Assembly (NCBI GenBank): GCA_023231475.1
Contig: JALJEE010000735.1
Coordinates: forward strand, 1-64,000
DNA length: 64,000 bases
Direction of reading: 5' to 3'
DNA from: Seison nebaliae
Lineage: Eukaryota
Shown here: positions 17,040 through 58,344 of the stretch, piece by piece
Numbering within the stretch: position 1 is the first letter of the stretch
Layout: every line of letters begins with the position of its first letter
Position numbers and translations under genes: made by a program
Notes under the pieces: model-generated
Told to the model about the DNA's origin: nothing
Databases searched by the model: none
What the model saw: the letters and a program-made list of their open reading frames with translations, nothing else

Positions 17040-18353
17040 ATGGATCAATTCGAGTACAGTAACGAGCAATATGGTACAGCAGCATCAGTAGATCAATATG
17101 GATTTGATTCGAATATTGGCGAAAGAGTATTCGGCAACGAAGAAGCCACACAATATGCCAATGAAGAGCAGTATGGTAATATTAATGGCGAATTAAATCA
17201 AATTCAAATGCAACATGTATTTAACAATGCGGAAGCTGGTTTATATGCGGAAAATTCGGCTGCTAATGCAGATGGTAATTGGCAAACTGCCCTTCGTTCC
17301 GAATCAACTTTACAACATCGTATGGATGATGAAAATGAAAAGATTAAACAAATGAATAGCGAACAATTACAATACCAAATAAATTACGATCCAAATCCTC
17401 AAGTAATTAAGAAACAGAACAATGAAAATGTGGAATATAAACAAGAAGTTGCTATTCGGTATCTTCAACCACCAACTCCACCCCCACCTGGTCCAATCAT
17501 TATTAAAGAGGTCAGACCACCACCAGCACCTGCAGCTCCTCCAGTTATTGTACGTCAACGACCTCCAAGACCGTTAACTCCACCTCCAATTGTCGTCCGA
17601 GAACAACCACCAACTCAACCCCAACATTTACCCCCAAAAATTATCACTAAACAATTACCGAGAAATGTACCACCTCCACGACGTGTCATTGTTGAACGAT
17701 TGCCTCCACTACCACCAAAACCAAGAAGTTTAATTGTAGAAAAATGGTTACCCTACAAAGACCAAAAACGACGTGTGGTGTACCAAAGAGCCGCAGTAGA
17801 AAAACCACAAGAAAAGGTAAGAAACTTAATTGTGGAATGGGCCGGACCAAGATCGAAAATTGTGAAAGAAATTCGTAATTTAGGAGTAATGAAAGTAAAC
17901 CCGAAAATTTATCTGGAAAAATATGGTGGAAAATTAGCGAACACAGCATCGGTTCATGGCGCATTATCAAACTTTGGCTTATCGTTGTCCCACAAAGCTC
18001 TCGCACCACCAACTACGGTACTGAACGAAATTCGGCAAACTCCTTCACTCGATTTCCAACGGACACAATCCCAAACTCCAATTCGAAGTCAAACGATGGA
18101 TTTCAATAACTTCTCTTCCTATGGGAAAATGTCACAAGTTCAAAGTCGTCAAGTATCGCGTACGGTAACCCCGGCTGTCTCGAATAATCAGCTTAATGGT
18201 TTAACGAACAGTTATACAAGTGGAACATTGTTTGAAAACGAACAATTCCAAATGGGAGAATTGAAAAATGATGTACGTAATATTGTCAAACGGTATGAAA
18301 TTCCTGGATATCACACATTTGCTGTATTGAATGGTCGTTTGAGTCGAATGTGA
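17040..18353 (+). CDS. Intronless 437-aa protein with Pro-rich conserved core (INYDPNPQ...YLQPPTPPP...RRVIVERLP...EKWLPYK); paralog of 56581-58344
   Basis: Single ORF with raised GC; ~220-aa core aligns by eye with the 587-aa ORF, plus a shared C-terminal motif. Confidence 0.85.
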   Translation: MDQFEYSNEQYGTAASVDQYGFDSNIGERVFGNEEATQYANEEQYGNINGELNQIQMQHVFNNAEAGLYAENSAANADGNWQTALRSESTLQHRMDDENEKIKQMNSEQLQYQINYDPNPQVIKKQNNENVEYKQEVAIRYLQPPTPPPPGPIIIKEVRPPPAPAAPPVIVRQRPPRPLTPPPIVVREQPPTQPQHLPPKIITKQLPRNVPPPRRVIVERLPPLPPKPRSLIVEKWLPYKDQKRRVVYQRAAVEKPQEKVRNLIVEWAGPRSKIVKEIRNLGVMKVNPKIYLEKYGGKLANTASVHGALSNFGLSLSHKALAPPTTVLNEIRQTPSLDFQRTQSQTPIRSQTMDFNNFSSYGKMSQVQSRQVSRTVTPAVSNNQLNGLTNSYTSGTLFENEQFQMGELKNDVRNIVKRYEIPGYHTFAVLNGRLSRM

Positions 18354-18652
18354 TTTAGTTCCAAAAAAAATTATTTTAATACAACTCCTTACACAGACAC
18401 ATTGTTTTTACGCTTTTCCTATCGATTAATCTTTTTGTCAAACATTCTATTTCTCTTATCAGTAACAAATGTAACATTAGTAACAAAGTAACGTTTAAGA
18501 AAAAAATTGGGAAAATTTTAATGTAACATTCTGCAACATCAAAAAATTTGTCTTAGAAACGAAATTTTCATTTTAGATCATTATCAATATTTCTGCTTCT
18601 ATTTTCAGCAAAATAAATATTTACCACAAATAAAAAATTATAATAATTATCT

Positions 18653-20037
18653 TTATTGATATGACGTTCGGATCATGGATAAAATATATTGTACTTTTTT
18701 GGAATTGGTCAAAGCGAGTTTCAGTTCAAACACGAGAAATTGAACGATCATATAAGAATAGAGAATGAAAAAAGATTTTTTTGGAGTCATATGAATTGTG
18801 TCCAAGAAAATATTACCGAGACCGGTAAGAAGATTTGAGAATAGAAAGAAGAGTAATCCATTCTTATTCACCAAACGAGACAAATGATCAATTGGTTTAG
18901 AAGAATATGATTTTCTGATCAAATAATAAAGGAAATAATTGAATTGAAAGATTATAAAAACTATCAAAATATAAGAGATGTTACATAATCGTCTACTAGA
19001 TTCGATGAAATGGATAATAGATAAAGAGATGAAGAATAGAATGAAATAAGAGAAATTTAAAATTTGTAAATTATCTTTTTTTGAGAGTGTCAATTCTTTA
19101 AACGAATAAGATAACATATAAAGTGAAACATAACCGAGTAATGATGAAATGCCTTCAATATTTTGAAGAATTAAATTTCCATTTAATCTTTCAATTAAAG
19201 TCGGATTTAAACCATATACACCGAAACTTCTTAAAAGAAACTCATGTGAAAGAATCAGAATGAATGACAAGATGAATTGAAATGGAATTGAATTGATATT
19301 AAAGATTTTCCATAAAATTGTTCCGATCAATTCACCAATGGCCAGCGTAAAGAAGAAATTCCAATGAATTCCATATTCGGTGATATGATTCTGATAATTG
19401 AGGAATTGTATGGAAATCGATCGAATCGTGCCAACGAGTAATAAGAATAAAATTTTGTAAGTAATCCTCGAGAATTTTTGTTTTCGATGAAATGACATTC
19501 CATTAATTAACATGAACATTCCAACACCAACATCCATAAAAGAAATACCGGTCAATTCTGTTTTAATTAATGATCGTGGGAAGACGGTGGGGAAATCGAC
19601 AGCAAAAATGCAAAATGATGTTACTATCAATAAATCGGATCGTAAAGAACGAATAATTTCATTTGGTAACGGTTCATTCTTTATCGACTGATTATTTCGT
19701 AGATAATAAAAGAAGATAATGGAGGACATAACAATAAAATAATGGAGAATGTATTCATTAAGTTTTTCATAGAAAACCATCGAAATTATAATTTTTAATA
19801 GAGTCTTCAAATAACTTTGCAATTTACTAAAACGAATGTTGACATATTATATCCAATTATACAAAGAATAAGAACTAACTAATGTCTGATGATTCGATTG
19901 AGTATCAGTTCCAGAGGCAAATGAGACAACACTGGAATTGCTACCAACAAACAAACTTTGTATAATTCATCTCCACTATTGTGGGAGACGAGAAGTTCTT
20001 TCTCCAATTTCACAGATTGATCAATGACAGTTTTCAT
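18653..20037 (-). CDS. PIGW: GPI inositol acyltransferase PIG-W/GWT1 (exons 20037-19880, 19826-18653)
   Basis: Motifs IFAVDFPTVFPRSLIKTELTGISFMDVGVG, YQNHITEYGIHWNFFFTLA, NIEGISSLLGY, SRRLCN, NGLLFFLFSNLLTGLGN; 53-nt GTT-AG intron 19827-19879 links the N-terminal EKELLVSHNSG exon. Confidence 0.95.
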
Positions 20038-20203
20038 AATGATTTTGACATTTAAGTAAATTTAAATTATAACCCGAAAAAAAGAGCGCTTTATTTTTAA
20101 AATAAATTATTTTCTTTTTATTTGACAATCTTTTAATTTTTGAAAAAATTTAAGTTTCAAAAACTTATTTCTATAGTGATTATGTACACATTATAAAAGG
20201 AGG

Positions 20204-22254
20204 ATGTCGTTAACTGACGTTTTAGATGGCCGAGATAAGCAGATTGAGGAACTGAAAAATGTTATTAAGATGATGAGAAATGAATATGAAGTGTTAGCGG
20301 ATAAAATGGAACAAGATAGTTGCAGACAACCGATCATGTGCTCAATTGGAATAAATACAGAAGATATGGAATCCGATAGAAAAGAAAATACGAAGTTTGA
20401 TAATTCGAGTGAAATGGAAGAAAACTATGAAAATATTCAAGATAACTGTTCACATGTTATCAACAAAAATTATCAATTGAAAATGTTGTTCAATCATTTG
20501 TCAATCAACGAAAGTTCAATTTATTCTCATGAAATTATATAATATTTTAAATTTGTAAAGGTAAGTTGTCAAACGAATTAACTAACTGGAAAGTCAAATG
20601 GAAACGATTAAAAATCGAATATGATCGCATGAAAACTCAATTTTCAGAAAATTTAAAAAAAGTTCTAGTTCTGAAGTTTATCTCGTATAGATTGATAATA
20701 TAATAGAAATATAATAATTTTTTAATTGATAATCACTTTGTTTTAATAACTTATAAATTGTTTTAATATCTTTTATTTTCAGGTATCATTAAGAGAAACT
20801 GAATTGGAGAGTGAGAATTATCAATTGAAAGAAGAACTTGATAACTATAAAGATAAATTGGAGGAATTGAAGATGATGAAGGAGAATATTGATAATAAGT
20901 TGGAAGAGAAACGAATGGAATGTCAAGAATATTACAAGACCGTACTCGTGAAAAATAAGGAGATAACCCAAATGGAAAGAAAAGTTCTTAAATTTCTAAA
21001 AATTTCTCCTTCTGAAATGATTTTTTAGTTAGCATCTCAAATTATTGATAACGTCGATATGGAGGATGCACCCGATAGTAAAGATTTGATGATACACTAT
21101 TTGAAGAATGAATTAGACACATTAAGTGAACGTGAAGGAAAACTTACGGATGATATTAATAGTGTGAATTTTTAATTTTTCCAAATTTATTCATCATAAA
21201 ATTTTGATTAAATTAAATAGATATTTATGAACAATGTTCTCATTCGTCGACTGATTCGTTAACGGATCAAAAACTAATGGAGAATGAAGAGAAGAATGAA
21301 AAAGAATTCGTTCAAAATGATTACAAGATTGTGCGAAAATACAAAATATTATTAACTCAATATAAACAGTTGAATGAGAAATATCAGAATGTGTATAAAG
21401 AAAACCTGAATCTAATGGAGGCGAGTAATCGATTACATTGGCAAATGAGGAGTAAAACGACGTCACATACAACTAATCGTCTTATTCATAAAAGTTCGTT
21501 ATTATTAGAAGACTATTAATTTTATTAGAGCGAATCCTAATTCGGACTATTATAACATTTGAAAATTAATGACAATAGTCTATCCCATTATATCGATAAA
21601 TGTTCTGCATGACATATATGTATATAAATCTTTATATCGAAATTTAAATATATGAATTTTCATTATGTTTATATAGAATCGATTAATCGTTCAGTGCAAA
21701 CGAATAACCAATCGGAAGTAGCATTATTAATGAAGGAATTCTTAAATCGTATGCATATCGAATATCAGAAGAAGAAGAAGAAGGGAAAGCGAGAGAAACA
21801 TTGGATATCGGAAGGTATTGAACAAAGTGACGATGAAGAAGAATGTCATCGAATGCATAATGTCGATGGGAAAGAAGAAGTAATAAGCCAGCGTAGGCAA
21901 CCATCCGCATACTCACCACGATTGTCATATGAAATGGGGAATGAGGAGATGAAGGAATTATTAACCTCATTCTCCTCGATCGATTTGACCTCTCTATGGA
22001 AATTATTAGAACATGGAACGAACGATTCATTACTCCAAATCAAGAATGCGCCAATAATCGATGACAATATGAGGAAGAATATCGATAGTGAGCATAACCT
22101 ATTTAATGATGATAAATTACATTCTGCTCGTCATAATAATTCTTCAAAAGTGAAGAAAACAACGAAATTAAATACAAGAACATCTAGTCCAAATTTGGGA
22201 AAGCCACGAAAGTCGATGATCATACGTAATTATAGTTTAGGCGAAAATATCTAA
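20204..22254 (+). CDS. Uncharacterised multi-exon coiled-coil protein
   Basis: ORF pieces 20204, 20804, 21277 and 21652 are E/K/L heptad-rich and can be joined by GT-AG introns (e.g. 20514-20560, 21494-21676); head-to-head with PIGW, ATGs 167 nt apart. Some internal junctions are uncertain. Confidence 0.7.
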
Positions 22255-23608
22255 TTTCTTTTTAACATTTCTTTCTCCATTATTCATTTAATGTACATAA
22301 ATTCTTTTCTTTTCCTTTCTCGTTCTGCATTGTCTTCTTTCTTTCAATTAATATCTCAATGAAGGACATGCATCTTTCCGTTTTACCATCTACCGACTCT
22401 GGGAATTGCATGAACATTCAAACGAAATTCATATCGAACCTCATACTTTTCATCCTATGTTATAGTCAGCTTAAATTGTCTGATGAGTTGTCCATCGATT
22501 TTCTTATTTCTTCCGATTATTTCTTATTGAGAAATAAATGGAATAAAAAAATGATTTATATTTTGATGGAAATTTTAGATGAATTTACCGAATAATCTGA
22601 AAAGACTAAATTCGGTTTGGTTCTCATTAGAAAACGATACCGAAGAAAAAGAAATTGTTAGAAAATAATCGTTATAGAATGATTATAATCATTCTATATA
22701 TAGCTGATAATGATAGTTTGAGTTATATAAGTTAGTAAAAAGAATACTTTATTTTTAATTGAAATTAAATTTATCGATTCTTGCATTCTGATTAAGAAGA
22801 ATGAAATTAGTAAATGTTATTTTAATTGTTGAAGGTGTTCCTCAATGTTATCTATTCGGATGTTGGAGATAATTGATGTTATTTAATCTCCATTCATAAA
22901 GTGAAAGCAGAAAGTTACCGATGAAAACACTTATATATCTTATATATCGTCATCATTAAAATATCATCAGTCATATGGAATCGATCATTTTTACTCAGAT
23001 TTAATTACTCGGTTTTTTCTTCTTCTTCTTTTCATTCACCTTCGACGAAGTTGAATTGTGCAAATTTCCTTTCATATCCTATCATAAAAAAGTTTTGCCG
23101 ACGGTTCACATCGTCTTTAAAGAGAATAGGAGAATGTACTTCATAAATTATATTCAATGCATTTTCCTCCATTCGTCCTCTTACCTTGTGCACGTGCAGT
23201 CGTTATGTTTTTTGATAGCAGTAGGTGAAGTATGTGCGTGAAAAATTGGAAATTCTTTTGGCTGGAAAACTTATGTTTTGTTAATTTATTATCAAATAGT
23301 GTCGATTGATGAGTAACTATTTGGTACATTTTGAAGAAGAACATTTATCATACAGATCGATCATTAATACATTAATTACTTGTTCTATATTCTGTTATCG
23401 ATTAAACATCATACCAATTCAATTGAATGACATGATATGATGATAATTCTTGACAGGTAATCATGTTACAATGAATAGTTGAATGTATTGATTTATTCAA
23501 ACATTTAACTCAAAAATCATTTACTCAATTCTATTCAACTTTCATCTGATTAATGAAATGATTCATTAGTTAATTAATAAAAAAAGAAGACGAAGAAGAA
23601 GAAGAAGA

Positions 23609-28237: not shown

Positions 28238-28273
28238 ATTCTTATACAAATTTACAATCTGTCCGATTACCGT

Positions 28274-28529
28274 TAAATAAATTAATAACATGAAAATTTG
28301 AAGTTTCTTTAGATGGAAATGAAATGTTTGGAAGTTGGCTGTTACAGTGCTTATCAAAATGTTCAAATAAATTTGAAAGATGTGGAAGATGTAAGTATAA
28401 CAAAGAAAGTTCATTTGACATATGAAACATAAAATATTTAACATATGGTTTTGATGTAGATGTTGGAAGATTCGGAGACATATCTAAAGAAGTCGAAATT
28501 ACATCTTGAAACGAACATATATCAGAGAG
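28274..28529 (+). pseudogene. FTCD: 256-bp direct duplicate of the FTCD 3' end (26908-27163) with introns retained
   Basis: Colinear with no indels and about 11 substitutions by hand count; the FTCD stop TAG is changed to CAG; no upstream exons. Confidence 0.92.
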
Positions 28530-42162: not shown

Positions 42163-45100
42163 ATGGAAACAAAGAAAGATGACTATCGAATAGAACATGG
42201 AGTTCAAATTGATCCCAATGTCATATCATTAACACAATGCCAAAAGGGTAAAAATTATATGGTACGAATAACCTTATTGAATTTGGATCAGAAACCTAAA
42301 AAAATTTCAGTGATCAAATCGAATGATCCAAATTGGTTGTTAAGTGCAAAGCAACCAATAGTCTTCGAAATCACTCCTAAAAGCGAAGAGTCATTGTTTT
42401 ACGAATATAAATTTTCGTCGAAACATAATCCCCATAACACCAGTCCATATCGACCATTAAGTGAAGGTGTTCTTGAAGTGTTAATCAATAAAAGTACAGC
42501 AAAAATTCCTTATTCGATTTATGGTGAATGTGCAGAAATCATATTTGACGGTGCATCTCTTTCTTTCTCTGAACTTCTAACATTATTTTTAGAAATGAAT
42601 TTCACTTTTGATTTATTGTTAAATGATCCGAATGTATTTCTCCAAACAAATCTGAAAAATGTTGGTCGATACAAAGCTAACATTGAATTCCGACCGAAAG
42701 ATCCTCATATTTTTGTGAATATGAAGAAAAGTGTTGCTACTCCTGGAGAATCATTACCATTCGAAATTGGTGTTGATGTTACTAACGAAATTTCAATTAC
42801 CACAGGAATAAAGTTTCTCCATAAATTTTTTCATTCTAAATACAACAAATATTTTTTTCAGTGTCTTCGTTAACGATATGTTATACCCAAAACCGATACT
42901 TGTTACGGCCGAAGTGAAAATTTGTAGTTTAGATCTGATATCTAAGAATACTCAACAAAAAATTGAACGAATCGACTTTAGTTCCGTTTATTATGGTTGT
43001 GACTATTTTCGTGAAGCATTGATCTTCAACAAGTCGAAATTTCCCATACAATTCTTGATTTTTGCTGGTACAACAAATGATGGACAACAAGATGTTAAAA
43101 TTTTCAGTTTTTCCATAATCACAATAATTTCAGAATACGGAGGATGAAGATGGTGATTTTAAAGGTGCTAATAAGAATGATCGAGTTTTCGGAGCGTTTC
43201 CAACCCAAGGTGAATTACGACCATTCGAGAAGAGGAATGTGGTATTCCGTTTTTCCCCACGAATGAAAGAGCCTGCCATCGGTTTTAAATCGACAGAAAT
43301 TGTACCGTTCGAGAAAGAACATTCGATGATTATTTATATTGTTGATGTTGTTAGATGGACACAATCGACTAGTATGTCAGATCCCGATAGTGCAGCGGCA
43401 AAATTTTGTTGTGTCACATTAACTGGTAATGTACATCCAGTTAATTTATCATTCGAACCGGATAATGCAATTGAATTTGGTGAAGTATTAGTTGGACAAG
43501 GAAAGAAGAAAGAATGCGAAGTACTCAATTTGTCTCGTTCAATGACTTTAAATATTAAATTTCAAAAATTGGCAAATTTCCATGTATGTCCGGAAATGGC
43601 ACAGATTAAACCACTTTCCAAACAACCATTCATTGTCATATTTACCCCCAAACAAATTGGAACGTTCAATTATTCGATTGGAATGGATGTGTTAGGACCA
43701 ATTGTAAAATCGGATTATTTTAATGCTCAACGTGGACCGTTCTATACGAGACATATCGAAGTAAATGCGGAAAGTATGCAGAAAGTAGATTATGAGAAAC
43801 TCGACGAAAAGTTCAATAAAATTGTAGAAGCAACGAAATATAAATATCCTAAGAAGTTAGAATCATTTATGATTCATCAATATTTTTATTTACTTTAGAG
43901 AAGCGAAAGAATTATACGACCCAATGTTAGAGATTTTTCACTGTTTCCATAGTAATTTTGGAATTTTTCTTTGATTTTTATGATAGTCCGAAAAATGTGA
44001 AAAGTTCTGAAAAATTATACAAAATTCGAAAAGAATTAGAATTGGAAGATTATGAGACTAATGCAATGGTAAGTGAAAGATACGCTTTGAATAAAGAAGA
44101 AAGACAAAAAGTAAAACAACATCGTAAATTGTATGATATTGAGAAAATGTCGAGACATGTGGAGAAACCACGAGACGTGATAACAGACCCGTCAAAAATC
44201 GAAGATACATTAACTCAATCGTCAAGTCTACTAAAAAGTTTCTTCATTTCATCTCAAATCTTTATAATAATTAATGAATTGAAGAGAAATCGTTATTCCC
44301 GAAAGAATGGCAATTAGTGAGTGCTAGAAATATGATTGCCGAAAGAAATGATCTTGAACAACTTACCACAGTAACATCGTGTCCAATGTATCCGAGAACA
44401 CAATTGCAGAAACAAAATACATCGGTAAAACTGAATCCTATCGAATCGTTACAGACAGTTTTTTGTTAGTCAATTTTCTCAAATGATGTTTCGCATAATT
44501 TCCTTCAGATCCAGAAACTCTCAATTTTGGAATTGTTCAGGTAAAATCATCATGTCGATTAAATTTATATGCATGTAATCAATTGGACATTCATATTTAT
44601 GCACAAATGGAAGTTTCTTTTCTTTTCATACGATTATTGTATAAATCTTTTAGACGGATATTGAAGAACTGAAACTATCTTTTCCTCGAAAGCAGGTCAT
44701 TCCTCCGAAAAGTAAAGCAATCTTCCCAATTTGCTTCCAAAGTGAAACGAAACAACATTTCCAACGGTTCATCTCTTAATTATCTTTTGATTAATTAAAA
44801 TGGTTTTTCGACAATTTATTTAGAGATATTAAATTTACAATAAATAAATCTTCCACTCGCACTATAAGAGTTACTGCCGAAGTGGCATCGGGCACATTAA
44901 ACTTATATCCTAAACATCATCTAATTTTAGGTACAACATGTGCCTCCAGTTGTCTACCGAACATAATCTCTCAATTCCATGGAATGGTAACATTAACCAA
45001 TCCGCAAGGTATACCAATGACTTTCCGATGGGAACGTGTATCGTCCGATGTTGGTGAACAATACTTTCAAGATTTTCATGAATCTGATTATCAAAGACAG

Positions 45101-48100
45101 AAAAATTACCACACAAAACAAGATAGAGGACATGAGATTGTGGAAGAAGATAATACTCAAATAGGTATCGATCCACCAGAAGGAGTTGTAGCAGGAAACG
45201 CAAGTATAATGTGTGAAGTCATTTGGAAATTGGATTACAATCATGTCACAGATAAGTATTTTATGGTTCTCTTTGCAAATGGCAGTCATAAGATCATGAA
45301 AGTTTCACTTTCTTTCACTTTAGCCAACATAACTTTTGTGGATCGTTCCATCGACTTTGGCATCATACCAACACACTTGCCATCTGAACGAACATTCTAC
45401 TTAGCTAACAAAAGTGATTGTTATGCGATATATGATATCGGAATGGATCCGAATGCTAAAGGAATTAATGTCAGTCCAAAGGTTGGTATGATAGCACCCG
45501 AATCATTTAGACCGATAACAGTAAGTGTGCAAATGCAAAAGGAAAATAAATTTGAAGTATTGCTAACCGTAAAATCGAGAACTGAAGCTGGTGGTACGAA
45601 GTTGAGAGTGAGTGGTTCAGCGTCAAATCGTTTATGTGAAATAGATCAACCGAAATTACTATTTGGATCTATATTTGCGAGAACTCGATCAACAATCCCT
45701 TTCAGATTATACAACGATACATCATGTATGAATACGGTGGAAATATCTTTTAGTCGTCAATCAGATTTCTGGATCACATTCTCATCAGACGTCTTAATGC
45801 AACAAAGATATTTGGGTAATTTCGATATACGACTTTTGGGCGATACCGCTTGTGATATGAATGATAATTTATTAATAAAAGATGAATATCCAACAGCTGA
45901 AAATCGTCGTTGCTTTCTCATCGTACCGAAACAAACGTCTATTGAATTAGTGTTGAATATTTATCCAGTTGAAGTAGCCACTTATGATTTCCCACTACCA
46001 ATGTTAGTGAATACACTCCAGAAACTTTCTTTGAGTGATTTAGATGTACAAAATTCAATTCCGTCTCCAACACATCGAACAGCAGAAGATATGTCTGTGA
46101 AAACGTTTTCGAAATCAACCAGTGATCTGGATCCTGTTGCTGAGAAATCGTCGTTCTCTTCTCAAATGAAACCACCAAAGAAAGTTGCAGTGATAAAGCG
46201 AATAGGAACGGTAGAGATATCGAACGATAGTCCTATTCGACAACCGAAATATACTGATGAATGTGGTTATTCATGGGAACCGTTGACATTTGAAGAAATC
46301 AGATTATTAGCCAAACAAAGACCAACTCCTTTAAGGAAGCAAAATAATGTTCATACAAGTTCAACGGAAGGAGATGAAAATCGATTACGTTTAAATAATT
46401 CGAATGAAGATCCGAAGAAAGGAATGGATAGTGCCGATACAAATATTCCATGGAGTAATGATGATCCGGCAGGAAAAACAATTTCGGCAACGGTTGTTCG
46501 ACCGATATTAGATATCAGTGAAGAATCTTTTACTTTCCATACATCGAGATTAATTCAAAATTTAGTCGAATCATCAACTTTCCTTAATTGTCGATCATTC
46601 AGTTTAACAAATCGATCAAAAAATGAAGTTCATTGGATGATCGATATGTCATATGATCCTGTTCATCCGAATATATTATACGATGGTGTATTTTCCATCA
46701 TTCATGGTAATATGGTCGGTTTCCCATCAGATCGAACCATCAAAGGACCAAGTGGATATTTATACGAAGGTGAAACAATTCCATTAAAAATTATTTTTTC
46801 TCCAAAATTACCTGGCACATATCAGGCAAAATTACCAGTAATTGTGAATAAAACTTCTGTTTATTCTCATTTAATATTATACGGAGAAATGCAGACACTT
46901 CGATTATCCAGTACACCATCAGATCTCAAATTTGAAACGGTTCCTTTAAACACCAAAATTAGCCAAACAATCAAGATCGAAGCATATGGTTATACGGGAA
47001 ATACGAAGTTATTTGTTAAAGTACCTTCGATCAATTCTTCGGATGAATCTGACGATGAAACGATACAACCACTATCATGTAAATTCGTTAATGGTAATGT
47101 TATTTCAGTTGATTCCGATACTCCCAATTTTAACATACCTGTCAGTTTGGAATTAGAAATTGAGTTCGTTTCCGATCGACCAATTTCTTTCGTTGCACCA
47201 CTTTACATTTATGATGAGAATAAAGTATCATACGAATTACCAGTTTCAGGATCGGCAGATAATTCAATGTTTTCGTCTTGTCGTTATTTAATGAATCACA
47301 ATTTCCATTATATGATCCATACTCTCCCGTTGACGGCTGAAGAGGGAGATAGTAATGGCTGTGGAACTAAATATTATTTGGAACCTATGCTAATGAGTTC
47401 TGATCAAATCATTAAGAAAGTTAATGAATATTTCGATTGTATGGGAGTTACTAAAACGATCGAAAAGAATACAATGGATAGTAGAGTGAATAAAGATCGA
47501 TTGAGACATTTCGGTTCAGAAAAATTGCAACAAAAGATCCACCACAACTATACTGAAGTTATTCGACATTCACAATTAAATCGCGCTTCTCATACTACTA
47601 TCGGAAAAGTCGATGATGCTGTTACGCTTTACAAACGAAGATTTTCGAAAGTACTTAAAATTTTACAAGTGTCACCCAGTTCCATACATTTGAGCACCAC
47701 AAATTGTATATTATCGTCAATGTTAACGAATGATGATTTTGGTAGGAAAAATTATGAACAATATTGTCGACTATTGAATGGATTACAAAGTTGGTTACGA
47801 CATTTCGGTTGGTCGAAATTTGCATATTCTCTCCATATACCCACATCATTCCAGAAAAACATAACCGGTTTTGGAGTTGCATATAAGAATAAGAAATTAC
47901 ATCGAGAACAGCCACCTCCAAGTAGTTTTACGATTTTTGAGATGATTGAAAATTTAAGTGGAATAAGAATACCAAATACATCAAGTATGCCGTCACAATA
48001 TGATGATAAGTTAACTCGAGCTAAATATCATTATTATCAACGGAAATTATTAATCGATTTCCTCAATGCCAATGGTGGATTAGTATCTCATATTAATCGA

Positions 48101-51100
48101 GAAATTTTGCTGGATTATCATGATTATGTAACTTTAATGCACTATTGGAAGAAGAAACAATCATATCCGAAATTATATTCAGTTGAAACGGAAGCAACCT
48201 TCACACCGGTTGAAATTCGGAAAGTTGGTTATCAATCATATAATCGATTGATGAATGATAGGACAATTTTGAATTCAAAACAACATACACTTCTTTGTTT
48301 AGATGCATGGATGACAATTCTTCTTCAATTAATTAAAATATTAGTCATATCTCGAATCGATGAATTATCATTTAAAACAGCAATTCAATCATTGGATGAA
48401 ATGCCGATGTCGATTTATCGTTCGGAAATTCCAACAAAGAAAGATATTGAAAGTAGTATGGTTCATGTGGAATCCAAATTAAAGAAATTACCACCACAAA
48501 ATTGTCGAATTTGTCTTAATCCTGTTTCATCAAATTTTTACTCAACATCTGAAAGATATTTATTGAAATGGATAAATTATGTTTATAACCGATATTTTGA
48601 AGCATTCTTTTTTCTTATTAATCACAACATGATTGCCCAACCTGGTGGGACGAAGGATAACGAAATGCTTTGTCTCAAACATGGCGAACAATTCGAAAAG
48701 AATATCAGCACAAATACACTCAATATCAAACAAGTAAGACGAAGAATATCAACTGAATCGTCACCGGAAAATCGCCAAAATGTTTTTAAAAAATACATTA
48801 GTGATAAAAGTGAGAAACTTCTACCGAATTTCATACCAGACACGATAAATAATTTTGCGGAAGATTTCAAAGATGGAATTGTAATTGGAATAATTTTATC
48901 AGCCTATTTCCCAATAATTATCGATCCGTTAATGCAAATGTATCCTAATCCTGTTTCGAGAGAAGAAAGAAAAAGTAATTGTAATCGAATAATTGATGCA
49001 TTAAAATTCCTGGGTTTAAATTTCGATATATCACCAGATGACATCGAACATTCCGATCCAATTATGATGTGTCTATTCTTCAGTTATTTGTTTCATCATC
49101 TTCCAAAAATGGTTCAACCGAAAAGTCTCGAGTTCAGTTGTGCATTAGGCGAATTTGCTATACAAACAATTCAATTGAGTAATCTGGCGAATAAGCCACT
49201 TCAATACAATGTTGCAATCGTTTTATTGAATGAAAGAAAAAGTAGAAAGAATGCTTACTCTGAAATTCTGGATGAAGTAACTGGTCAGCAGAAGAAAGGA
49301 CAGGACAGATCTCGAACAAGTATGAAAGCTGATTTGGAAAGTAATGTCTTCACTGTAAGTTCCACCAACATTACCATCCAACCAAATTCTAATGCCTCAT
49401 TGACAGTGACGTATAAAGGCCACATCGTCAGTAGTGAGAAAGCATTATTATTATTATATTGTAAGAAACAATATCCTCATCAATCGTCCAATATGATTTA
49501 TTTAATCACTTCTCGTACTCAACATGTAGCACCAAATGTTAGTAGTAAACAATTAATTCTTTATCATTTTCTTAAGTTTTTTTTGTTTTTTATTTCTCAA
49601 TAATCTGTTTATTTTTAACTTATGCTTTACTTTTTTTTGCTTCTGTTCTTAGGGAGATAGTGTAGCTGCTCAAACGGGAGTTCTTTTTTTTTTATTTCAT
49701 TTTCTATTTTAATATATATATAATTCCGTTCATTTTATTAAGCGTTATATCAAAGTGCAAACACCATTATACGAACCATATACGATACCGATTGAAGTTC
49801 GATATACAGCGAGACAAGGTGGAATTTACAATCTGAATTTACTTGAACGAATTGGAGATGACCCACTGCAACACTTTGAACCCATTAAAGAAGTGTCACG
49901 GTTACTTTTCAATTATAATTCCTTTATTTTCATTTAATCTAAACACAAATTTAGTGAAGGTAGAAGAGCTCTTCAAAAAATTATGAAAAGAAAACGGAAT
50001 ATATTGAATAAAATTGCTCAAATGGATCTACCAGAAGCTACACGAGACACGCCTGTCAAATATCGAACATTCTTCACTAAATCGGATTCTGTCTTCATTC
50101 CCAAATTAGAACCAGAAAAAGGAAGGAAGAAACAGAAAAAACAAGTGGAAATCAAGAAACAAAAACGGCATAAGAATATTTTAAGTGTTGTCGTTAATAT
50201 TACTTACTTACCGTTAACGATAGAGAAACGACATTGTACAATTGTTTTCCGTAATGAATATTTGGGTGAATTTACATATGAATTGGAAGGAATGCCTTTA
50301 TTGCCTCTACCACAACCATTCTCTTTGAAATATTTGGTTGCCTCTCCAGCTCCAACGGATCATTCAGCAAAAGATGATAATTCTTCCATGCGTTATGAGT
50401 ATAATCGAACTTCAGAAAGCGAAATTGGACGTCAAAATAGTGATAATCGTTTAACTGTACATACAGCAGGAAATACTAACGAAAATTCCTCAACTCGCAA
50501 GGCGGATGATAAAGTGACAACTGAAGTAAAATTTTTGGATCATAATGATGATGACAATAGTAGTCTGTCACATATTGAAAGTAATAACAAAATAAGTAGA
50601 ACTTCCAGAAGCAACACTAAAAGTTTACGTCGATCCCTTACACATCCCACTCCAAGTGCGGATCCTGGAAATACGGCTTCTAACTTAGCTGTCACATCGC
50701 CTATCCATACAAATTCATATACATATTATAATATTAATGTCAGTCCAACATATGATGCATTATCTGAAATGAATTTAAATTTGAATGCCAATCCAAAACC
50801 ATCAGCCCATCGGATATCAGACAATGTTATGTCGTCGCAGCATGTTGAAGTGAAAAAATTGAAAATTAACCCGGAAAAACCGATGATAAAAAATTATTCG
50901 CCACTAAGTGAAGAAAGTGTGATGATCTCTAACGTGAGACAAACAGTGACTATACCCGGAATCGACTTTCCACCAGAACAAGTCGAAAAGATATTGAAGA
51001 ATTTTAATCAGGAAACGATAAACAAATTAGGAATTGGAAAGAATAAGTATGCGGGACAAGTACCAACTCATATCATTTCAAAATCACACCAACAGAAATT

Positions 51101-54100
51101 GGCGCCAATTAAGTGCATTGAATTGCGGGAGAAAGTGGAAACTTCAAATATTCAGAGTGTGTTCGATAAATATTTGGAACAGGACGATGATGTTGGTCAA
51201 AAGCTTATTCGTTTAACTTCCGACTCACTTAATAAGAAACCGGAAAAGAAGACATTTGTTAATCAAGAGATTCCAACGGTTAAAGGTCCACCCGATGTCA
51301 GACATTTCCAAATATTATGTTCTACTCAACAAAAATTGAAAGCATTCATTCCCATCTATATTTATAATCAAGCGAAACATGACGCTCTCAATCACATGGT
51401 CTTGATGGTTATTCTTTTCAATTTCGAACCATTTCTATAATTTTATTTGTAGAATGAAGCCGAATTCTCCACAACAAGTAAAAATATCATTTTCGAGAAA
51501 ATTATGATTGATGGTTGTTCCAAAAAGAACCCAGCGTTTGAACAAGTTAAATTTACACCAAATTTTTTAACTGTTCGATCGTCTCTTTTTAGTCACTAAA
51601 AGTTTTCCAACCGGTTCCCTATCAAGTATTCTGTACAGTACCAGATATTATAAAAGTGCCGGAAACCGTGAAATTGACAGATTATGGTTTAGAATCATTA
51701 TATGTTGTGAAGGAAATGAATTTATTTGTATAGAAATTGTGAAAGATGAGATGTTTTTCTTTCTACCGGTTGAAATTCAACCCATCAATTTTACGACTAA
51801 TAAATCGGAGAAACAAATTTATGCTGGAATTTGTTTAGTTTCTCCTTACGATTTTCGGGCATATAGTTTGGAGTTATCATTTAATGAGCAAGAGGATGAT
51901 GAAATTTATACGTATTACGTGGAAATGACAAGTATTATAAATAAACCGATATGTCAATTTATACCGATAGTTATTATAATTATTTGCTAAATTAGAACAA
52001 TTATATCCATCCAAATATTTTCTAGAGGAATAATGAGGAGCATAAATTGATATTAAAATGTTCTTTGGAAGGTGAATGTTTCTCTGGGGAGACCACTCAA
52101 TTCATCGTTCCACCATTGAAAATCTTGCAATATCCTCTAACATTTACACCAACTGCCCATCGTGAATATAAAGGTACATTAACCTTCAAAAATATCAACA
52201 GAAATTTTAAACAAATCTTCCATCTAATCGGATTGGGTGAGCAAATACCTCCGTTTGATATTATAACGATCGATGCACAAGCAAGATCAATTGGAATTGG
52301 AAATGTTCTTCTAAAGAATACTACTCATCAACCAATTTACTATAAAGTTCATTCAACACTCAAATATTTGAGTGGTCCATCAACCTGTTGTGTGGCGCCA
52401 AAGAAATCGAAGTCATATAATTTCAATTACTTCCCATTAGTATCGGGGAATGATCGTGGCAAACTAATTTTCACAGTAACTGATGGAAAATCCAAGTTTT
52501 GTCCTATACTTATTTACTTTATTGCTACTAATCCGTAATATCAGGAAGGAAAATTTTACAGACAAATTACCAATTGCAACTATGGCGAATAACCAAGGAG
52601 AATACATCTGGTGTGATATCATATTTAATATCGATATGCCACAACCCGAACAAACTATTGACATTAACACAGTAGTGGGAGTTAGTAACATATTTTTCTT
52701 CGGATTTGCAATAAAGAATTCTCAAGACTGTAACGACGATAGAATTGAAAATAACAAATCCGATTAAAACGCCAGTGGTGTTGGAAGCCCATTTTAAATC
52801 TCCACCTAAATTTAAAGAAGCTGTTTTGGCTAAAAATAGTAAGAAGGACGTAACATATTCAAGAGCAATATTTTTTATCGGTGCTCCAAAACTCAAAATT
52901 GCAGCATGTGCTAAAGCTACTTACGAGTTTACGTTTAACGCTTATGTAGCAGGTGTGGACTATGGGAAATTAATATTCTCACATCCTGATATTGGGGAAT
53001 TTTGGTTTTCGTTGGTTTGTCGAGTGACGAATCCCGAAGTAAAACAATTTGAGGATTTCGTTCCAGTCAATGTAGGATGTCCAGTTTTGAAACAAATAAC
53101 GTTGTACAATCCAACTGAATCTCATACACCTTATCACATCTCTCTGACGAATGGGAGAGATTTTCAAATTGTACCTCACATTAACGTGCTAAAGAGTTTG
53201 ATAGTTAAATCGGGTAATTTATTGCCAGAAAAATTATCAATTTATACGGAAAAATTGAGGAAATCGTCGGCGCAAGAATTTAAGGAAACTCCGTCAACCA
53301 TCGTCAAAATAGCGAATCCAACTGAATCACACGTATTATTAGCACCATGGTCTACCTATCAATTAAGTATCTACTTTTTACCATCTTTTCATAAAGAAGC
53401 TTTAATTCCCGGAAAATTAACTATTACTAATGCGAAAGTCTATTTCTGCATCCTTTTGTCTGATTGATAAAATTTATATCCTTTTTAGGTGGGTAAATTT
53501 GAATATGAATTGAATGGAGTGTTAACTGAAAATTATTTCGAAAAATTGAAAGCAAAGGAAACGATCGAAGTAGCGTTGAAAGCTCCTGTTGAGGAAACAG
53601 TTGAAGGTGGATTAGTTTATCAAAACCCAACTGATACTGATTTGGCCATCGAAGTACGAACGAGCAGTATTAAAAATCAATCAGATGAAACTACATTCTC
53701 GGTTGATACGGTAAAAGATAATGTTAATTTATTTCATTTATTCAATTTTAATTCGTAATGATTAATAGGTGAGGAAATTTGATAAGAAAATTATACCAAT
53801 TCTTTTTACTCCTATGAATACTCAACAATATAGAATTCGAGTAGAAATTGTTGCTAAATCGATAGACGGGTTAATATTATTTATTAAATTTCTTCAAATA
53901 TAATTGGGATTAATTTCAATTAGAGTTAGTTATAGGTCAAAATTTACGAAGCCATTTCGAACATCCCAATCGAGTAGAAGATCAAGTTTTGGATTGAGCA
54001 AGAAAGGATCCGTCAGTTATTTACAAAGTAATTTAACCACGAAAAATCCATATTTGGCTGGTGATATGAATTTTAATAATAATACTACTAATAAGAAAGT

Positions 54101-55680
54101 TGTGGAGTTGCCGATATTTGATAATGTCAATAAAGAAATTAAAAAGGGAGAAAAATTATTGGAAAATATTCCTGAAGACAATTATGCGGTAACATTATCT
54201 GAGAATACGATGCTCATACCGAAGCAAATGACTGAAACACTTGATTCCATAAAACCGATTAACGATCAAATAAATGACATCGAAGTTATAAAAAAACAAA
54301 CTCCATCTAAACCGGAGAAGGTTGTGGAGATATCAAATAAGGTGGAAGAAATACGAGACGAAGATGATGAATCCATCGATTTCGGTTGTATTTTCAACAT
54401 TACTGGTGAAGGTATACCAGAGAAATATAATTGTAAAATAATGGATGAAAAATTTTCGTTGATTAATCAGCACATTAATAGTAAGCGACCAGATCTGGTG
54501 CCAAGTAAAAATAATGATTGCTTCCAAGTTGACGGAGAGGTACGAGAAGAGCAATTACATAATGTACAAGTCATATTGGAAAATGCTCCAAGTTTGATTT
54601 TTAAATTAATTCCATATAACGACATATGAATTTAGCGTCGAATATTAATTTGACTGTTACCAGTTCTCAGAATCAAAGTAACAGTACAGGTGATGATGAA
54701 TATAAGATTACCAATAACTACGTTTTGGATGAAAGTTTTCTTTTTGTAATTATTAAGTGTAAATTTATTAATTGTGTTTTTCGAATAATTAAGACCAAAA
54801 CCTTGTGGGCGAATATGTTTATTCTTTAGGGATGGATCCGAATCAAGAAAGAAATTCCACTATCCCATTGAGTACGTTACGTGACGTGGTAGATGTTGAG
54901 CTAGTGGAAGCGATCAACAATGGAGATGGAGAAATATCTCTCCGTTTCCAATTTAACTTCTCACCTATCAAACCTTTATAGTTGACTTTTATTTCGAATG
55001 CTTCTTATTCCCTTTAATTCTAGTGCAAATGCTCATCTTTTGATAAAATCAATTAATACGGGCAAATGGAAAATGCCGTTGAAATTTTGGGCGAACGATA
55101 ACAGATTTGAAGATACGATCTTTGTCGAATGTACCTCAGATAAACGAATAGTAGAATTCTTCCTTTCAAGTCTGAATAGGTTTCAATTAATTGAATTATG
55201 ATTATTATTATTATGATTATGGTCTTCTATAAACTGACAGAGAAAAATTGAGATTTCAATGGAAATTTGTTCCGGTTGCACCACCAACCGTCAAATTGAC
55301 AACATCATCGACTTATTTGTTACCTGGTGAGAAGGGAACGAAGTTCTCAATCGAGTACAAACCACAACCGGATGACGAGCATTTCCAATTAAAACTACGT
55401 ATTCAAGTTAGTCTCATACGATCATGTCTATTAGATCGAGAATAATTATTTTGAAAAGGCGGAGAATGATGAGGAATGGTCTTATCTTGTTTTGTTTTCA
55501 CAAAACGTCCCACTCACCAGCCAACTTCATTATAATAACGAACAACAAATGAATCAAGGTATGATACGGTTGAAGAAAGTGAAAAGGAATTTTGTAAAGG
55601 AGAACAAATACCTAATTCGAACTGCCCCGTCGAGTACAATGAAGGGTCTGTCGATGAATTCGAAAATAATTCTTAAGTAA
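42163..55680 (+). CDS. CFAP47: Cilia- and flagella-associated protein 47 (very large, more than 20 exons)
   Basis: Tandem ASH/Ig-like domains (IDFSSVYYG, IEFGEVLVG, IDFGIIP, LLFGSIF), calponin-homology motifs NFYSTSERYLLKWIN...INNFAEDFKDGIVIGIILSAYFP, GEFTYELEG, HPDIGEFWF; successive + strand ORFs join via 40-115-nt GT-AG introns. Confidence 0.9.
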
Positions 55681-56580
55681 ATCAGAAAGATAATGATCAT
55701 TAATATTAACGATTTGTGATCGACATGATTGTTTAATCAATAAATAAAACTCATCTCTTTCTGCCATTATTGAATGTTGTCTAATCAATTTTAACTTTGA
55801 ATTTCTCCCTAAATTAACATGACTTTCGAATGACTCGTAAAACATCTCAAAAGATTGAGATAATATTGATATCTGTATAAATCATCAGTTGAAATGTAAT
55901 TTGCAAAGTGGATAAAAGAGAAAATTTTAATGTTTATTTCAATAATTCACTCACAAACGTCTCACCAAAAAATGAGCATTTTAAAACTAAATTTACTCTT
56001 CCAACTCCAATTCTCTCTACTTTCTTGGAAATCTAATGGCTACTCAAGCGTAAGAAGAAAGTAGATTTGGTTTAAGTAATTGAATATTGCTGTTGAGCAA
56101 CCAATAGATAACAATTATATTAGATGACATGATGAATTGTTGAATAAAAACGCTCATTAATGATTAGTAAATCTGTCTCTATTAATAAGTGAAATCTTAA
56201 CACAAACATTCATCGAAACAATGAATTAAATTCATTTGGACATTGATCAAAGTCCGAGATATCATTTCCTCATATCCCTTCGATTTTGCATTGAAAGTGT
56301 ATGTTTAGATAAGAAAAGAAAACCTTCGTCATAATTTGATTGGAAAGAATTAGTAGTTTAATCGAAAATAATTTACTCATCCTGTCATTTCAACATACAA
56401 CACGCTTGTTGTTATTAGTTTCTCACTGATAATGATCTATGTTTTAATGATGTTAAGAAAGATAATTATAGGATGGAGGGTCATCCTTAACTAATATTTA
56501 TAGGAACCAGGAAAATCATCATACAATTGAATTTGTTTCATCTTTAGTATTCTATTGTAGTTCTCCAACTTTAACAAAAC

Positions 56581-58344
56581 ATGTCTAATTACGAATATAG
56601 CCAATCATCATCCTGGTCATCATCATCCTCATCAGAAGGCGGTGATGCTGGTTCAGCAGCTCAATCCATCTTCAAAGCATATCTCGCTGCATCTGATTTA
56701 GGTGGAAGTGGTGGAATTAAAGGTATTGGTGCTAGATCATACCCGGCCGAACCAATGGGTTCTGCCTCATTCGGTAGTTCAGGTGATGCGAGTGCATCAT
56801 ATTCAGCATCCTCTTCCTCTTCATGGGAATCGAGTGGCGCATCAAGTGGTGCTGCCGACTTCTCTTCTGAATCTTACAGTTCAGGAGGTGCCGCAGGTTT
56901 TGGTGCTGAAGGATTCAGTGCTGGAGGAGCATCTTATGGTGCATCAAGTGATGTTGCTGATTTCAGTAGCGGTGGTTCCTCTAGTTTCGAGAGCAGTTCG
57001 TCCAGTTTCGAAAGTTCATCATCCGGATCTGCTGGATATGGTAGTGGTTTCGCAGCTGGTGGTGATGCTTCATATGGTGGCAGTAGCTTCAATTCTCAAT
57101 CTGTCGAAGCATCTGGTTCATATGGTGCTGGTGATGCCGGTTCATCACATACCACATACAAGTACAAGATCAATTATGATCCAAATCCTCAAATTATCCG
57201 AAAAGATAACAAAGAAGATGTCGTTTACAAACAAGAAGTTGCTGTTCGATATTTGCAACCACCAACTCCTCCACCAAATGGCCCATTGATCATTAAAGAG
57301 GTACGAGGTGCTTCAATGAAAGCCGGTCCACCAGTTGTTATTCGACAACGACCAGACAACCCCAAAACACCTCTACCATTGGTCTTACGTGGCCCACCAC
57401 CAAAAATGCCACAGGCAATGAAACAACAAGTTATTACTCGTAAATTGAAGGGAGGTAGTCCACCACCTCGACGTGTCATTGTTGAACGTTTACCCAAACT
57501 TCCAGCAAAACCACGAGCTTTAGTCGTAGAAAAATGGTTACCATACAAACAACAAGCACGAAAAGTTGTTGTCCAAAAAGCTGAAGCTGCAAAGAAAGCA
57601 GAAGCTGTGAAAAATATGATTATTCAATGGAATAATCCACAAGTAAAGAAAGTTCAAGAAATCATCAATCTCGGTGTTATCAAAGCCAACCCACAATTGT
57701 ACATCACTAAATATCGATCGGACTTCCGAGATGAAGGCGCAATCAACTCCGCTTTCTCCCAATTCGGATTAACAGCCACTGATAAACGTATTTCAGCTCC
57801 AGCTGAAGTTTTGGCTGAAATCAAACGAAATAATGAAATGGCTGCTGCTGAATTAAAGAAAGCTACTGCTACATTCTCCAAATTCGAATCATCATCATCT
57901 GGTGGAGATTATGGTTTAGGAGGTGCTGCTGCCGCTGGCGGTGAATCAGGAAGTTCATGGTCTGCTCAAGAATCATCATCCTGGTCGTCATCCTCATCTG
58001 GTGATGCTGGTGCTGTTGGTGGAGATTATGGAGCATCAAGCTCCTACTCATCAGGAGGAGGTGCTGATTTCGGTGGAAGTTCTTCTTTCGAATCATCTGC
58101 TGAATGGTCATCATCATCCGGTTCAGGATCTGCAGGAGATGCTGATTTCTCTGCTGCTGGTAGTGTTGGATTTGGAGACGCTGCAGGAGGAGGAGAATCA
58201 TATTCATCTTCATCATCCTCTTCATATTCATCATCGTCATCATCAGGTTCTGGTGCATTTAGCGGTGGTTCTGCCGAACTTCGAGCCATCATCCAGAAAT
58301 ACACTGTTCCTGGTTTTATCACATTTGAAGTGAAGGGTGAATAA
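56581..58344 (+). CDS. Intronless 587-aa protein: Gly/Ser/Ala-rich head and tail flanking the same Pro-rich core as 17040-18353
   Basis: Single ORF, elevated GC, frequent C-ending codons; core INYDPNPQIIRK...YKQEVAVRYLQPPTPPP...RRVIVERLP...EKWLPYK; TATTTATA at 56495-56502. Confidence 0.88.
   Translation: MSNYEYSQSSSWSSSSSSEGGDAGSAAQSIFKAYLAASDLGGSGGIKGIGARSYPAEPMGSASFGSSGDASASYSASSSSSWESSGASSGAADFSSESYSSGGAAGFGAEGFSAGGASYGASSDVADFSSGGSSSFESSSSSFESSSSGSAGYGSGFAAGGDASYGGSSFNSQSVEASGSYGAGDAGSSHTTYKYKINYDPNPQIIRKDNKEDVVYKQEVAVRYLQPPTPPPNGPLIIKEVRGASMKAGPPVVIRQRPDNPKTPLPLVLRGPPPKMPQAMKQQVITRKLKGGSPPPRRVIVERLPKLPAKPRALVVEKWLPYKQQARKVVVQKAEAAKKAEAVKNMIIQWNNPQVKKVQEIINLGVIKANPQLYITKYRSDFRDEGAINSAFSQFGLTATDKRISAPAEVLAEIKRNNEMAAAELKKATATFSKFESSSSGGDYGLGGAAAAGGESGSSWSAQESSSWSSSSSGDAGAVGGDYGASSSYSSGGGADFGGSSSFESSAEWSSSSGSGSAGDADFSAAGSVGFGDAAGGGESYSSSSSSSYSSSSSSGSGAFSGGSAELRAIIQKYTVPGFITFEVKGE

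What the first reader, a model, noticed from the sequence alone, without database searches (positions are those of the whole stretch)
17040..58344. Two intronless paralogs sharing a Pro-rich core: candidate lineage-specific structural protein family
ORFs 17040-18353 and 56581-58344, 38 kb apart, share a ~220-aa core of short V/I-rich charged strands alternating with polyproline runs (PGPIIIKE, PPVIVRQRP, PPRRVIVERLP, LIVEKWLPY) and a terminal motif (VRNIVKRYEIPGYHTFAV vs LRAIIQKYTVPGFITFEV), but have unrelated low-complexity arms. Both are intronless, have TATA-like boxes, lack signal peptides and are GC-richer than neighbours, suggesting abundant intracellular proteins. The composition recalls articulin/alveolin-type cortical skeleton proteins. 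I recall similar uncharacterised proteins in rotifer proteomes. Hypothesis: components of the intracytoplasmic lamina of the syncytial epidermis.
Basis: partly seen in the sequence, partly recalled or inferred. Interest (0 to 1): 0.7.

Follow-up and report, generated by a model that had tools for sequence, protein, structure and literature searches.

The report
Rotifer-wide unnamed proline-beta repeat proteins
The two genes belong to a large, unnamed protein family that we found only in rotifers and thorny-headed worms, and its repetitive build suggests it is likely a structural material, possibly the still unidentified protein layer that stiffens the skin of these animals from inside.

Summary
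Both ORFs are real and paralogous (51% identity over 250 aa, E 1e-76). The window is almost certainly Seison nebaliae. Their ~190-aa core defines a large family with no Pfam, PDB-sequence or fold match: 963 clusters at 50% identity reach E<=1e-10, and all 94 hits that carry an organism name are Syndermata (seisonid, acanthocephalans, bdelloids, monogononts). The core repeats short Ile/Val strands between proline runs with a ~16-residue period (p~0.001), is basic, and sits between variable, usually acidic low-complexity arms; 68 of 352 full members carry terminal EF-hands. It fails the published composition test for epiplastins (articulins/alveolins), so the resemblance is architectural only. 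ORF1 is transcribed unspliced, so the GenBank model that removes 70 core residues looks wrong. The high GC comes from amino-acid content, but codon usage, strongest in ORF2, fits high expression. Most likely a self-assembling intracellular structural protein. Its presence in gutless acanthocephalans and male-less bdelloids leaves the epidermal lamina as the best site (about 45%) and muscle as the main rival. Localisation and assembly are untested, and range outside Syndermata is not excluded.

The parts
17040..18353 (+). ORF1, 437 aa, no Cys, 49.7 kDa
   Evidence: unspliced contig 16999-18630 in run X1
17370..17939 (+). ORF1 conserved core (res 111-300): Ile/Val strands alternating with proline runs, net charge +21
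17940..18044 (+). ORF1 continuation of the core, predicted small helical lobe (res 301-335)
   Evidence: AlphaFold model, pLDDT blocks 76-88; shared with ORF2
17728..17937 (+). 210-nt GT-AG stretch that the GenBank model SNEBB_003057 removes as an intron; it encodes 70 conserved core residues including the invariant E-x-W
   Evidence: no joint here in the four runs laid
18264..18329 (+). ORF1 C-terminal motif (res 409-430), seen only in Seison paralogues
16967..16975 (+). TATA box candidate, about 30 nt before the start of the X1 contig
   Evidence: contigs cannot fix a transcript start
18612..18617 (+). AATAAA near the end of the X1 contig (18630)
56581..58344 (+). ORF2, 587 aa, no Cys, 59.5 kDa by the script's figure
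   Evidence: covered in run X1
56581..57159 (+). ORF2 N-terminal arm, Ser 34% Gly 19% Ala 15%, net charge -14
57160..57729 (+). ORF2 conserved core (res 194-383), net charge +26
57730..58269 (+). ORF2 helical continuation and Ser/Gly/Ala C-terminal arm
58270..58335 (+). ORF2 C-terminal motif (res 564-585)

Best explanation
The two ORFs are members of a large, unnamed multigene family found so far only in Syndermata, whose periodic strand/proline core likely assembles into an intracellular structural network, most likely the fibrous lamina inside the syncytial epidermis. Shown: family, periodic core, medial position, charge pattern, terminal EF-hands in some members, transcription. Inferred mechanism: the short Ile/Val-rich strands, held apart at fixed spacing by stiff proline runs, cannot bury themselves in a small globular fold and would pair with strands of neighbouring paralogues to give sheets or filaments; the basic cores would be bridged by acidic arms; arm length and make-up (Ser/Gly/Ala up to about 1000 aa) would tune spacing and stiffness; terminal EF-hands, sometimes one at each end, would add calcium-dependent end-to-end links. 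Odds: structural polymer of some kind about 0.7, epidermal lamina specifically about 0.45.
For: [quoted passage not shown] Several copies per genome, lower bounds: 7 Seison, 6 Pomphorhynchus, 5 Neoechinorhynchus. Mixed clades (acanthocephalan+bdelloid SH-aLRT 95 and 87; monogonont+bdelloid 99) point to duplication before the classes split (quick tree). Kept in acanthocephalans, which lack a gut and whose body wall is mostly tegument (passages, PMC7310846), and in bdelloids, which lack males (passage, PMC10125929). Hydrophobic autocorrelation peaks at lags 16, 32, 47, p 0.0008 and 0.0012 against two shuffles. Core is medial in 343 of 352; positive in over 99%, arms negative in 87-88% of 222. 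Only 1 of 212 has a hydrophobic N-terminus. Giant Ser/Ala/Gly arms in some members. EF-hands in 68 of 352, one at each end in 12. Codon bias: NNC share 0.50 (ORF2) and 0.35 (ORF1) against 0.23 in ten neighbours, p 5e-6 and 0.02; ATA 0 of 23 and 1 of 24 against 163 of 570.
Against: No localisation or assembly data at all. The monomer model is only moderately confident (pLDDT 68, pTM 0.52; 54.5 and 0.29 with 28 rows), and strand pairing could not be read from covariation (best stripe 2.59 against null maximum 2.68). From memory, not from a call, the Brachionus lorica was described as two disulphide-linked keratin-like proteins of 39 and 47 kDa; this family is Cys-poor (132 of 219 have none, both ORFs none) and not coiled-coil, though its median mass is 50 kDa. 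Muscle and nerve are also shared by all four classes, so range alone does not single out the epidermis. Very few indels and invariant residues (W, E, R) could equally mark a defined binding fold.
Confidence: 0.45

Rival explanations
1. A structural or elastic component of muscle or another contractile system (dense bodies, attachment plaques, retractor recoil), with EF-hands sensing calcium.
For: Muscle is kept in all four classes (established knowledge); EF-hands in 68 of 352 members; Pro/Val/Ile/Lys/Arg/Glu-rich core loosely recalls elastic PEVK segments (recalled).
Against: No Ig, Fn3, LIM, PDZ or actin-binding family in any scanned member; no EF-hand in the 7 Seison and 11 acanthocephalan members checked; muscle machinery is normally pan-bilaterian, whereas this family was found only in Syndermata.
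Confidence: 0.2
2. A soluble scaffold or adaptor whose PxxP arrays bind SH3/WW/EVH1 partners under calcium control, not a polymer.
For: Many PxxP and polyproline runs; strong sequence conservation across classes, 44-73% identity.
Against: Strict 15-16-residue spacing with conserved hydrophobic triplets, large paralogue numbers and silk-like arms are unusual for adaptors; codon bias suggests bulk production.
Confidence: 0.15
3. A matrix protein that packs around true intermediate filaments in the lamina (like keratin-associated proteins) rather than forming the fibres itself.
For: Ser/Gly-rich arms of ORF2 (63% S+G+A) resemble loricrin and keratin end domains (recalled); would reconcile the recalled keratin-like lorica proteins.
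Against: Whether syndermatans have cytoplasmic intermediate-filament proteins could not be established; few Cys for cross-linking.
Confidence: 0.1
4. Egg, sperm, jaw, glue or desiccation protein.
For: Low-complexity structural proteins often serve these roles; monogonont males have filament-filled rods of unknown protein (passage, PMC13403294).
Against: No signal peptide; many copies in male-less bdelloids; kept in acanthocephalans, which lack a gut and, from memory, jaws and corona; present in a marine epizoic and in endoparasites that, by inference, do not dry out.
Confidence: 0.1

Closest known systems
Epiplastins (articulins, alveolins/IMC proteins, epiplasmins; Goodenough et al. 2018, PMC6212826)
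   Same: Medial domain of predicted strands and coil, about 200 aa, flanked by unrelated G/A/S/T-rich heads and tails; acid-base dyads next to V/I; multigene families; intracellular.
   Different: V+I 18.6% against 33+/-7; charged 23.6% against 35+/-6; net +14 against -9+/-13; Pro 20%; Ala 5.7%; almost no VPV; a conserved alignable sequence with fixed period rather than free composition; no IMCp Pfam match; animal host.
Corneous beta-proteins (beta-keratins) of reptiles and birds
   Same: V/I/P-rich beta core that is thought to drive filament formation, with variable low-complexity arms, in an epidermal multigene family (described in PMC6212826 section 42).
   Different: No sequence or Pfam match; core far longer with about 16-residue repeats; Cys-poor; EF-hand fusions.
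Rotifer lorica / intracytoplasmic lamina scleroproteins (Bender and Kleinow 1988; only the citation was seen, in PMC10246822)
   Same: Same animals; family masses (quartiles 45-56 kDa) overlap the recalled 39 and 47 kDa bands.
   Different: Recalled as keratin-like and disulphide-linked; no sequences known to me; this family is not coiled-coil and mostly lacks Cys.
Database labels on family members ('EF-hand domain-containing protein', 'serine threonine-phosphatase with EF-hands 2-like')
   Same: Real terminal EF-hands in a subset.
   Different: Labels describe only the appended motif; the core is unannotated, no phosphatase family was listed, and the two window proteins have no EF-hand.

Membership tests
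Epiplastins (articulin/alveolin class) | Medial domain with dissimilar G/A/S/T-rich head and tail | tested here: met
   343 of 352 medial; arm composition
Epiplastins (articulin/alveolin class) | V+I 33+/-7% in the medial domain | tested here: not met
   mean 18.6%, 0 of 219 reach 26% (criterion)
Epiplastins (articulin/alveolin class) | Charged residues 35+/-6%, net charge neutral or negative | tested here: not met
   23.6%; 7 of 219 reach 29%; net +14 mean, 6 of 219 at or below +4
Epiplastins (articulin/alveolin class) | Near-exclusion of Gly and Ala | tested here: not met
   G 2.5%, A 5.7% against 0.4 and 1
Epiplastins (articulin/alveolin class) | Acid-base dyads flanked by V/I | tested here: inconclusive
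   present but sparse: 6.5 dyads per core, 5 next to V/I
Epiplastins (articulin/alveolin class) | Predicted beta-strand/coil, no helices | tested here: inconclusive
   eight short or long strands and coil over about 180 residues, then three helices
Articulins | Numerous VPV modules | tested here: not met
   13 of 219 have one, none has two; both ORFs none
Alveolins | Pfam IMCp match | tested here: not met
   no such match for 28 cores at E<=1 or the two ORFs
Epiplastins (articulin/alveolin class) | Localisation in a submembrane skeleton | not testable with these tools
   needs antibodies or fraction proteomics
Intermediate filament / keratin proteins | Central alpha-helical coiled-coil rod | tested here: not met
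   no Pfam Filament match; 20% proline, strand/coil model
Corneous beta-proteins | Sequence homology to the beta-keratin core box | tested here: not met
   no Pfam or PDB sequence match
Component of the syndermatan intracytoplasmic lamina | Present in all four classes and lacking a secretion signal | tested here: met
Component of the syndermatan intracytoplasmic lamina | Recovered from the insoluble integument and localised to the lamina | not testable with these tools
   no proteome table with sequences was found

The most novel reading that the evidence does not exclude
This family is the building material of the intracytoplasmic lamina and lorica, the molecular counterpart of the trait that unites rotifers and thorny-headed worms: an animal cortical skeleton made not of intermediate filaments but of a new beta-strand/polyproline polymer, convergent on protist epiplasts and reptile beta-keratins, with split terminal EF-hands giving calcium-tunable stiffness.
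Probability: 0.35. Interest if true: 0.85.

Novelty: new variant of a known kind. Interest (0 to 1): 0.62.

Why it matters
The protein identity of the lamina that defines Syndermata appears not to be known at sequence level (none found in ten literature searches). A conserved, phylum-wide, multi-copy family gives a concrete candidate with sharp tests: lorica proteomics, CRISPR in Brachionus (method paper PMC10395877, seen in a search listing only), and presence or absence in Micrognathozoa, which have intracellular plates in a cellular epidermis. Even if the site is elsewhere, it is an unannotated domain of hundreds of clusters with no fold match, it deserves a Pfam entry, it is a candidate molecular marker of Syndermata, and it has no host homologue among the named hits, which is of use for work on acanthocephalan fish parasites.

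Tried and rejected
Run search: no RNA holder listed on record; X1 is judged RNA only from its spliced joints. Contig depth in X1 over ORF2 was 5857 and 1300 against 7-252 in the other 28 bins, and 43 over ORF1 against 0-22 in the other 27 bins; the tool states that such depth cannot rank genes, so it is kept as a lead only. Complex prediction for three copies of the core was not available, so there is no verdict on self-binding. Covariation did not beat its null. Fold searches found nothing: Foldseek PDB 0 at E<=0.001, top rows were FapC amyloid at E 0.18 and 0.54 with TM under 0.1, treated as noise; VIA-align 0 of 48161 at Z>=2; viral 0; with a pTM 0.52 model this does not show a new fold. 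ESM Atlas: three unnamed clusters, commonest taxon Rotifera; no named cluster after skipping EF-hands. No relative in prokaryote genomes (0 of 218 pattern matches, single-sequence query), viral contigs (0 of 9) or phages; these searches reach close relatives only. A degenerate EF-hand at the ORF2 ends was considered and not supported. A database-wide search for the C-terminal motif was not carried out, so its restriction to Seison rests on the 222 proteins then held. Seison monophyly of the seven paralogues is weak (SH-aLRT 78; 0.97 in FastTree). Literature: ten searches found no description of the family; most subscription papers, including the original lorica biochemistry, are not in the library. 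Motif searches in supplements of PMC9523657, PMC7310846 and PMC8351084 gave 0 hits (cells over 400 characters are cut); the expression spreadsheet of PMC12690905 was too large to read and may bear on expression. Earlier findings of the scan: none.
Full report
Observation. The window is an AT-rich (GC 0.307), gene-dense eukaryotic sequence. They align over 250 residues with 51% identity, E 1e-76, with one gap beyond the core. A profile of the core finds only these two copies in the window. A database protein of Seison nebaliae, SNEBB_003057, is identical to ORF1 in its first 229 and last 137 residues, so the window is almost certainly from that seisonid rotifer; the GC content fits the 31.9% given for its reference assembly (passages of PMC8351084).

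Gene structure. Of four runs laid, X1 behaves as RNA: patchy cover and GT-AG joints that the other three lack. One X1 contig covers 16999-18630 without gap, from about 30 nt after a TATATAAAA box to just past an AATAAA. The GenBank model removes 17728-17937 as an intron, deleting 70 residues that include the family's invariant Glu and Trp; no run shows that joint, so the model is probably wrong, though contigs drop rare variants. Neither full ORF is in the 15-billion-protein collection as an exact sequence. Lack of introns is not a family rule: three bdelloid-like loci have a 60-nt intron in the core. The raised GC is due to amino-acid content, since GC3 is not raised. Codon usage is a better hint of high expression: C-ending codons for Phe, Tyr, Asn and His make up 31 of 62 in ORF2 and 25 of 71 in ORF1 against 285 of 1256 in ten neighbouring ORFs (p 5e-6 and 0.02), and ATA is avoided. 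The neighbours are raw ORFs, some running into introns, so this is a rough control.

Family and range. Three homologue searches returned 300, 281 and 202 hits, of which the best 120 each were listed. A full HMMER scan of 1.84 billion cluster representatives gave 1562, 963 and 393 clusters at E up to 1e-3, 1e-10 and 1e-30 (the weakest class may hold unrelated proline-rich proteins; 150 were listed). Twenty look-ups aimed mostly at long-branch unnamed rows named only further syndermatans. In all, 94 of the 457 proteins fetched carry an organism name and all 94 are Syndermata: Seison, Pomphorhynchus, Neoechinorhynchus, Adineta, Rotaria, Didymodactylos, Brachionus. The Atlas's three nearest clusters are unnamed, all eukaryotic, commonest Rotifera. 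Nothing was found in prokaryote genomes, viral contigs or phages. The restriction is therefore well suggested but not proven: weaker hits were not listed and outgroup transcriptomes would be unnamed. No Pfam family matches the core (0 for both ORFs at E 0.1; six scattered single-member hits among 28 cores at E up to 1, best 0.022), nor any PDB sequence (best E 0.04).

History. A tree of 88 named cores (two named rows left out for broken cores; quick IQ-TREE search) places acanthocephalan copies in three places, two of them beside bdelloid copies (SH-aLRT 95 and 87), and one Brachionus copy beside bdelloid copies (99), so several subfamilies are probably older than the class splits. The seven Seison copies, including both ORFs, may be one lineage-specific expansion (78 there, 0.97 in FastTree); five of them share the C-terminal motif, which no other of the 222 proteins then held showed. 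No outgroup root was available.

Anatomy of the protein. Across 224 aligned cores the hydrophobic profile has autocorrelation peaks at 16, 32 and 47 residues (p about 0.001 by column and by block shuffles). The middle of the core reads as six units of 14-16 residues, each three aliphatic residues, a basic-acidic or basic-Gln pair, then a proline run. Core length varies little. The core is 20% Pro, 19% Val+Ile and basic (median +13, positive in over 99%), while the arms are Ser/Gly/Ala/Asn/Gln-rich and acidic in 87-88%. It is medial in 343 of 352 complete members. Arms range from tens of residues to Ser/Ala/Gly tracts giving proteins of 1094 and 1235 aa; ORF2 has the most S+G+A-rich arms (63%) of those 352. 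The recurrent appended domain is the EF-hand: 68 of 352, in 12 cases one at each extreme end; two other fusions seen once each (ribosomal eL8, glycosyl hydrolase-like 10) look like merged gene models. AlphaFold with 138 rows gave pLDDT 68 and pTM 0.52: long strands at both ends of the core, short strands between low-confidence proline linkers, and a confident three-helix lobe. No fold match was found, and covariation was too weak to give strand pairs.

How it most likely works. Shown: a conserved periodic core, variable low-complexity arms, opposite charges, no hydrophobic leader (1 of 212), several paralogues per genome, transcription. Inferred: this is the layout of polymer-forming structural proteins; strands spaced by rigid proline runs would pair between molecules, arms would set spacing and mechanics, and single EF-hands at opposite ends, which normally work in pairs (established knowledge), could link molecules end to end with calcium. 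The site is inferred by elimination. The family persists in acanthocephalans, which have no gut and whose body wall is largely tegument (passages), and in bdelloids, which have no males (passage); loss of jaws and corona in acanthocephalans is recalled. [quoted passage not shown] Muscle and nerve are also shared, so muscle stays the main rival. Against the lamina: my recollection, not checked in any paper here, is that the Brachionus lorica consists of disulphide-linked keratin-like proteins of 39 and 47 kDa; the family is mostly Cys-free (132 of 219; a few members have 10-31), although its median mass is 50 kDa. Only the citation of that work and the word scleroprotein were seen. I put a structural role at about 0.7 and the lamina at about 0.45.

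Comparison with known systems. By the criteria of Goodenough et al. (sections 6, 30 and 42 of PMC6212826, first parts read) the family is not an epiplastin: V+I, charge, net charge, Gly/Ala exclusion and VPV all fail. It may still work like one, and like the V/I/P-rich beta-keratins named in that paper, by convergence. It is not an intermediate-filament protein. Whether syndermatans have cytoplasmic intermediate filaments could not be settled from the passages seen. Micrognathozoa, sister to Syndermata, have intracellular plates in a cellular epidermis (passages), which gives a clean prediction for the family's range.

What I saw of each paper: PMC6212826 abstract and three sections; PMC9523657 abstract, section 6 and a supplement search; passages of PMC10125929, PMC13403294, PMC8351084, PMC10246822, PMC12690905, PMC12256650, PMC11836703, PMC4448529, PMC7310846 and bioRxiv 10.64898/2026.06.08.730799; supplement searches of PMC7310846 and PMC8351084; PMC10395877 in a listing only. 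Ten searches found no description of this family, within a library that lacks most subscription journals.

Verdict. The family is real, large, apparently undescribed and so far confined to Syndermata; the articulin/alveolin label should be dropped as membership and kept as analogy. The lamina hypothesis is the best single reading but is untested. Novelty: a new family within a known kind, lineage-specific structural proteins. Interest 0.62, because it offers a concrete, cheaply testable candidate for the material of a group-defining structure.

Noticed in passing
window 17728-17937: GenBank model SNEBB_003057 splices out 70 conserved core residues; the contigs laid show the stretch unspliced. 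A bdelloid-like locus (L078) has a real 60-nt intron starting in the same Ser codon, one base further on.
   Followed up: yes
window 57979: Runs X1 and X2 both read G where the window has T (codon 467 of ORF2, Ser to Ala), at full depth: allele or assembly error.
   Followed up: no
window 58073 and 57232-57276: Run X2 has a loose end with another Ser/Gly-coding sequence and short near-identical pieces over the ORF2 core, hinting at a close paralogue elsewhere in the genome.
   Followed up: no
window 58822-61439, minus strand: Multi-exon gene with at least eleven introns of 42-75 nt; the joined frame has RHGDRSP and a C-terminal hydrophobic stretch, recognised from memory as a lysosomal-type acid phosphatase.
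   Followed up: partly
window 44984-49603 and flanks: Large gene with CFAP47, CH and Ig-like domains; X1 contigs join it to 49954-51406.
   Followed up: partly
window 18653-19780 (-) and 61729-63249 (+): GWT1 inositol acyltransferase and a class II (Asn-type) tRNA synthetase: ordinary neighbours.
   Followed up: partly
window 1169-5776: 1535-aa ORF with no Pfam match at E 0.1; from memory it resembles the ribosome-biogenesis protein RRP12.
   Followed up: no
P0079, P0083, P0091, P0094, P0106, P0269, P0271, P0282: Bdelloid-clade members with one EF-hand at the extreme N-terminus and one at the extreme C-terminus, about 450 residues apart.
   Followed up: partly
L015:71-3778, L060:64-3348: Members of 1235 and 1094 aa with silk-like (SASASG) arms and extra conserved flanks on both sides of the core.
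   Followed up: partly
P0032/P0043, P0144/P0152, P0068/P0165: Pairs of family members list the same longest-contig length (18958, 10587, 31989), suggesting tandem paralogues.
   Followed up: no
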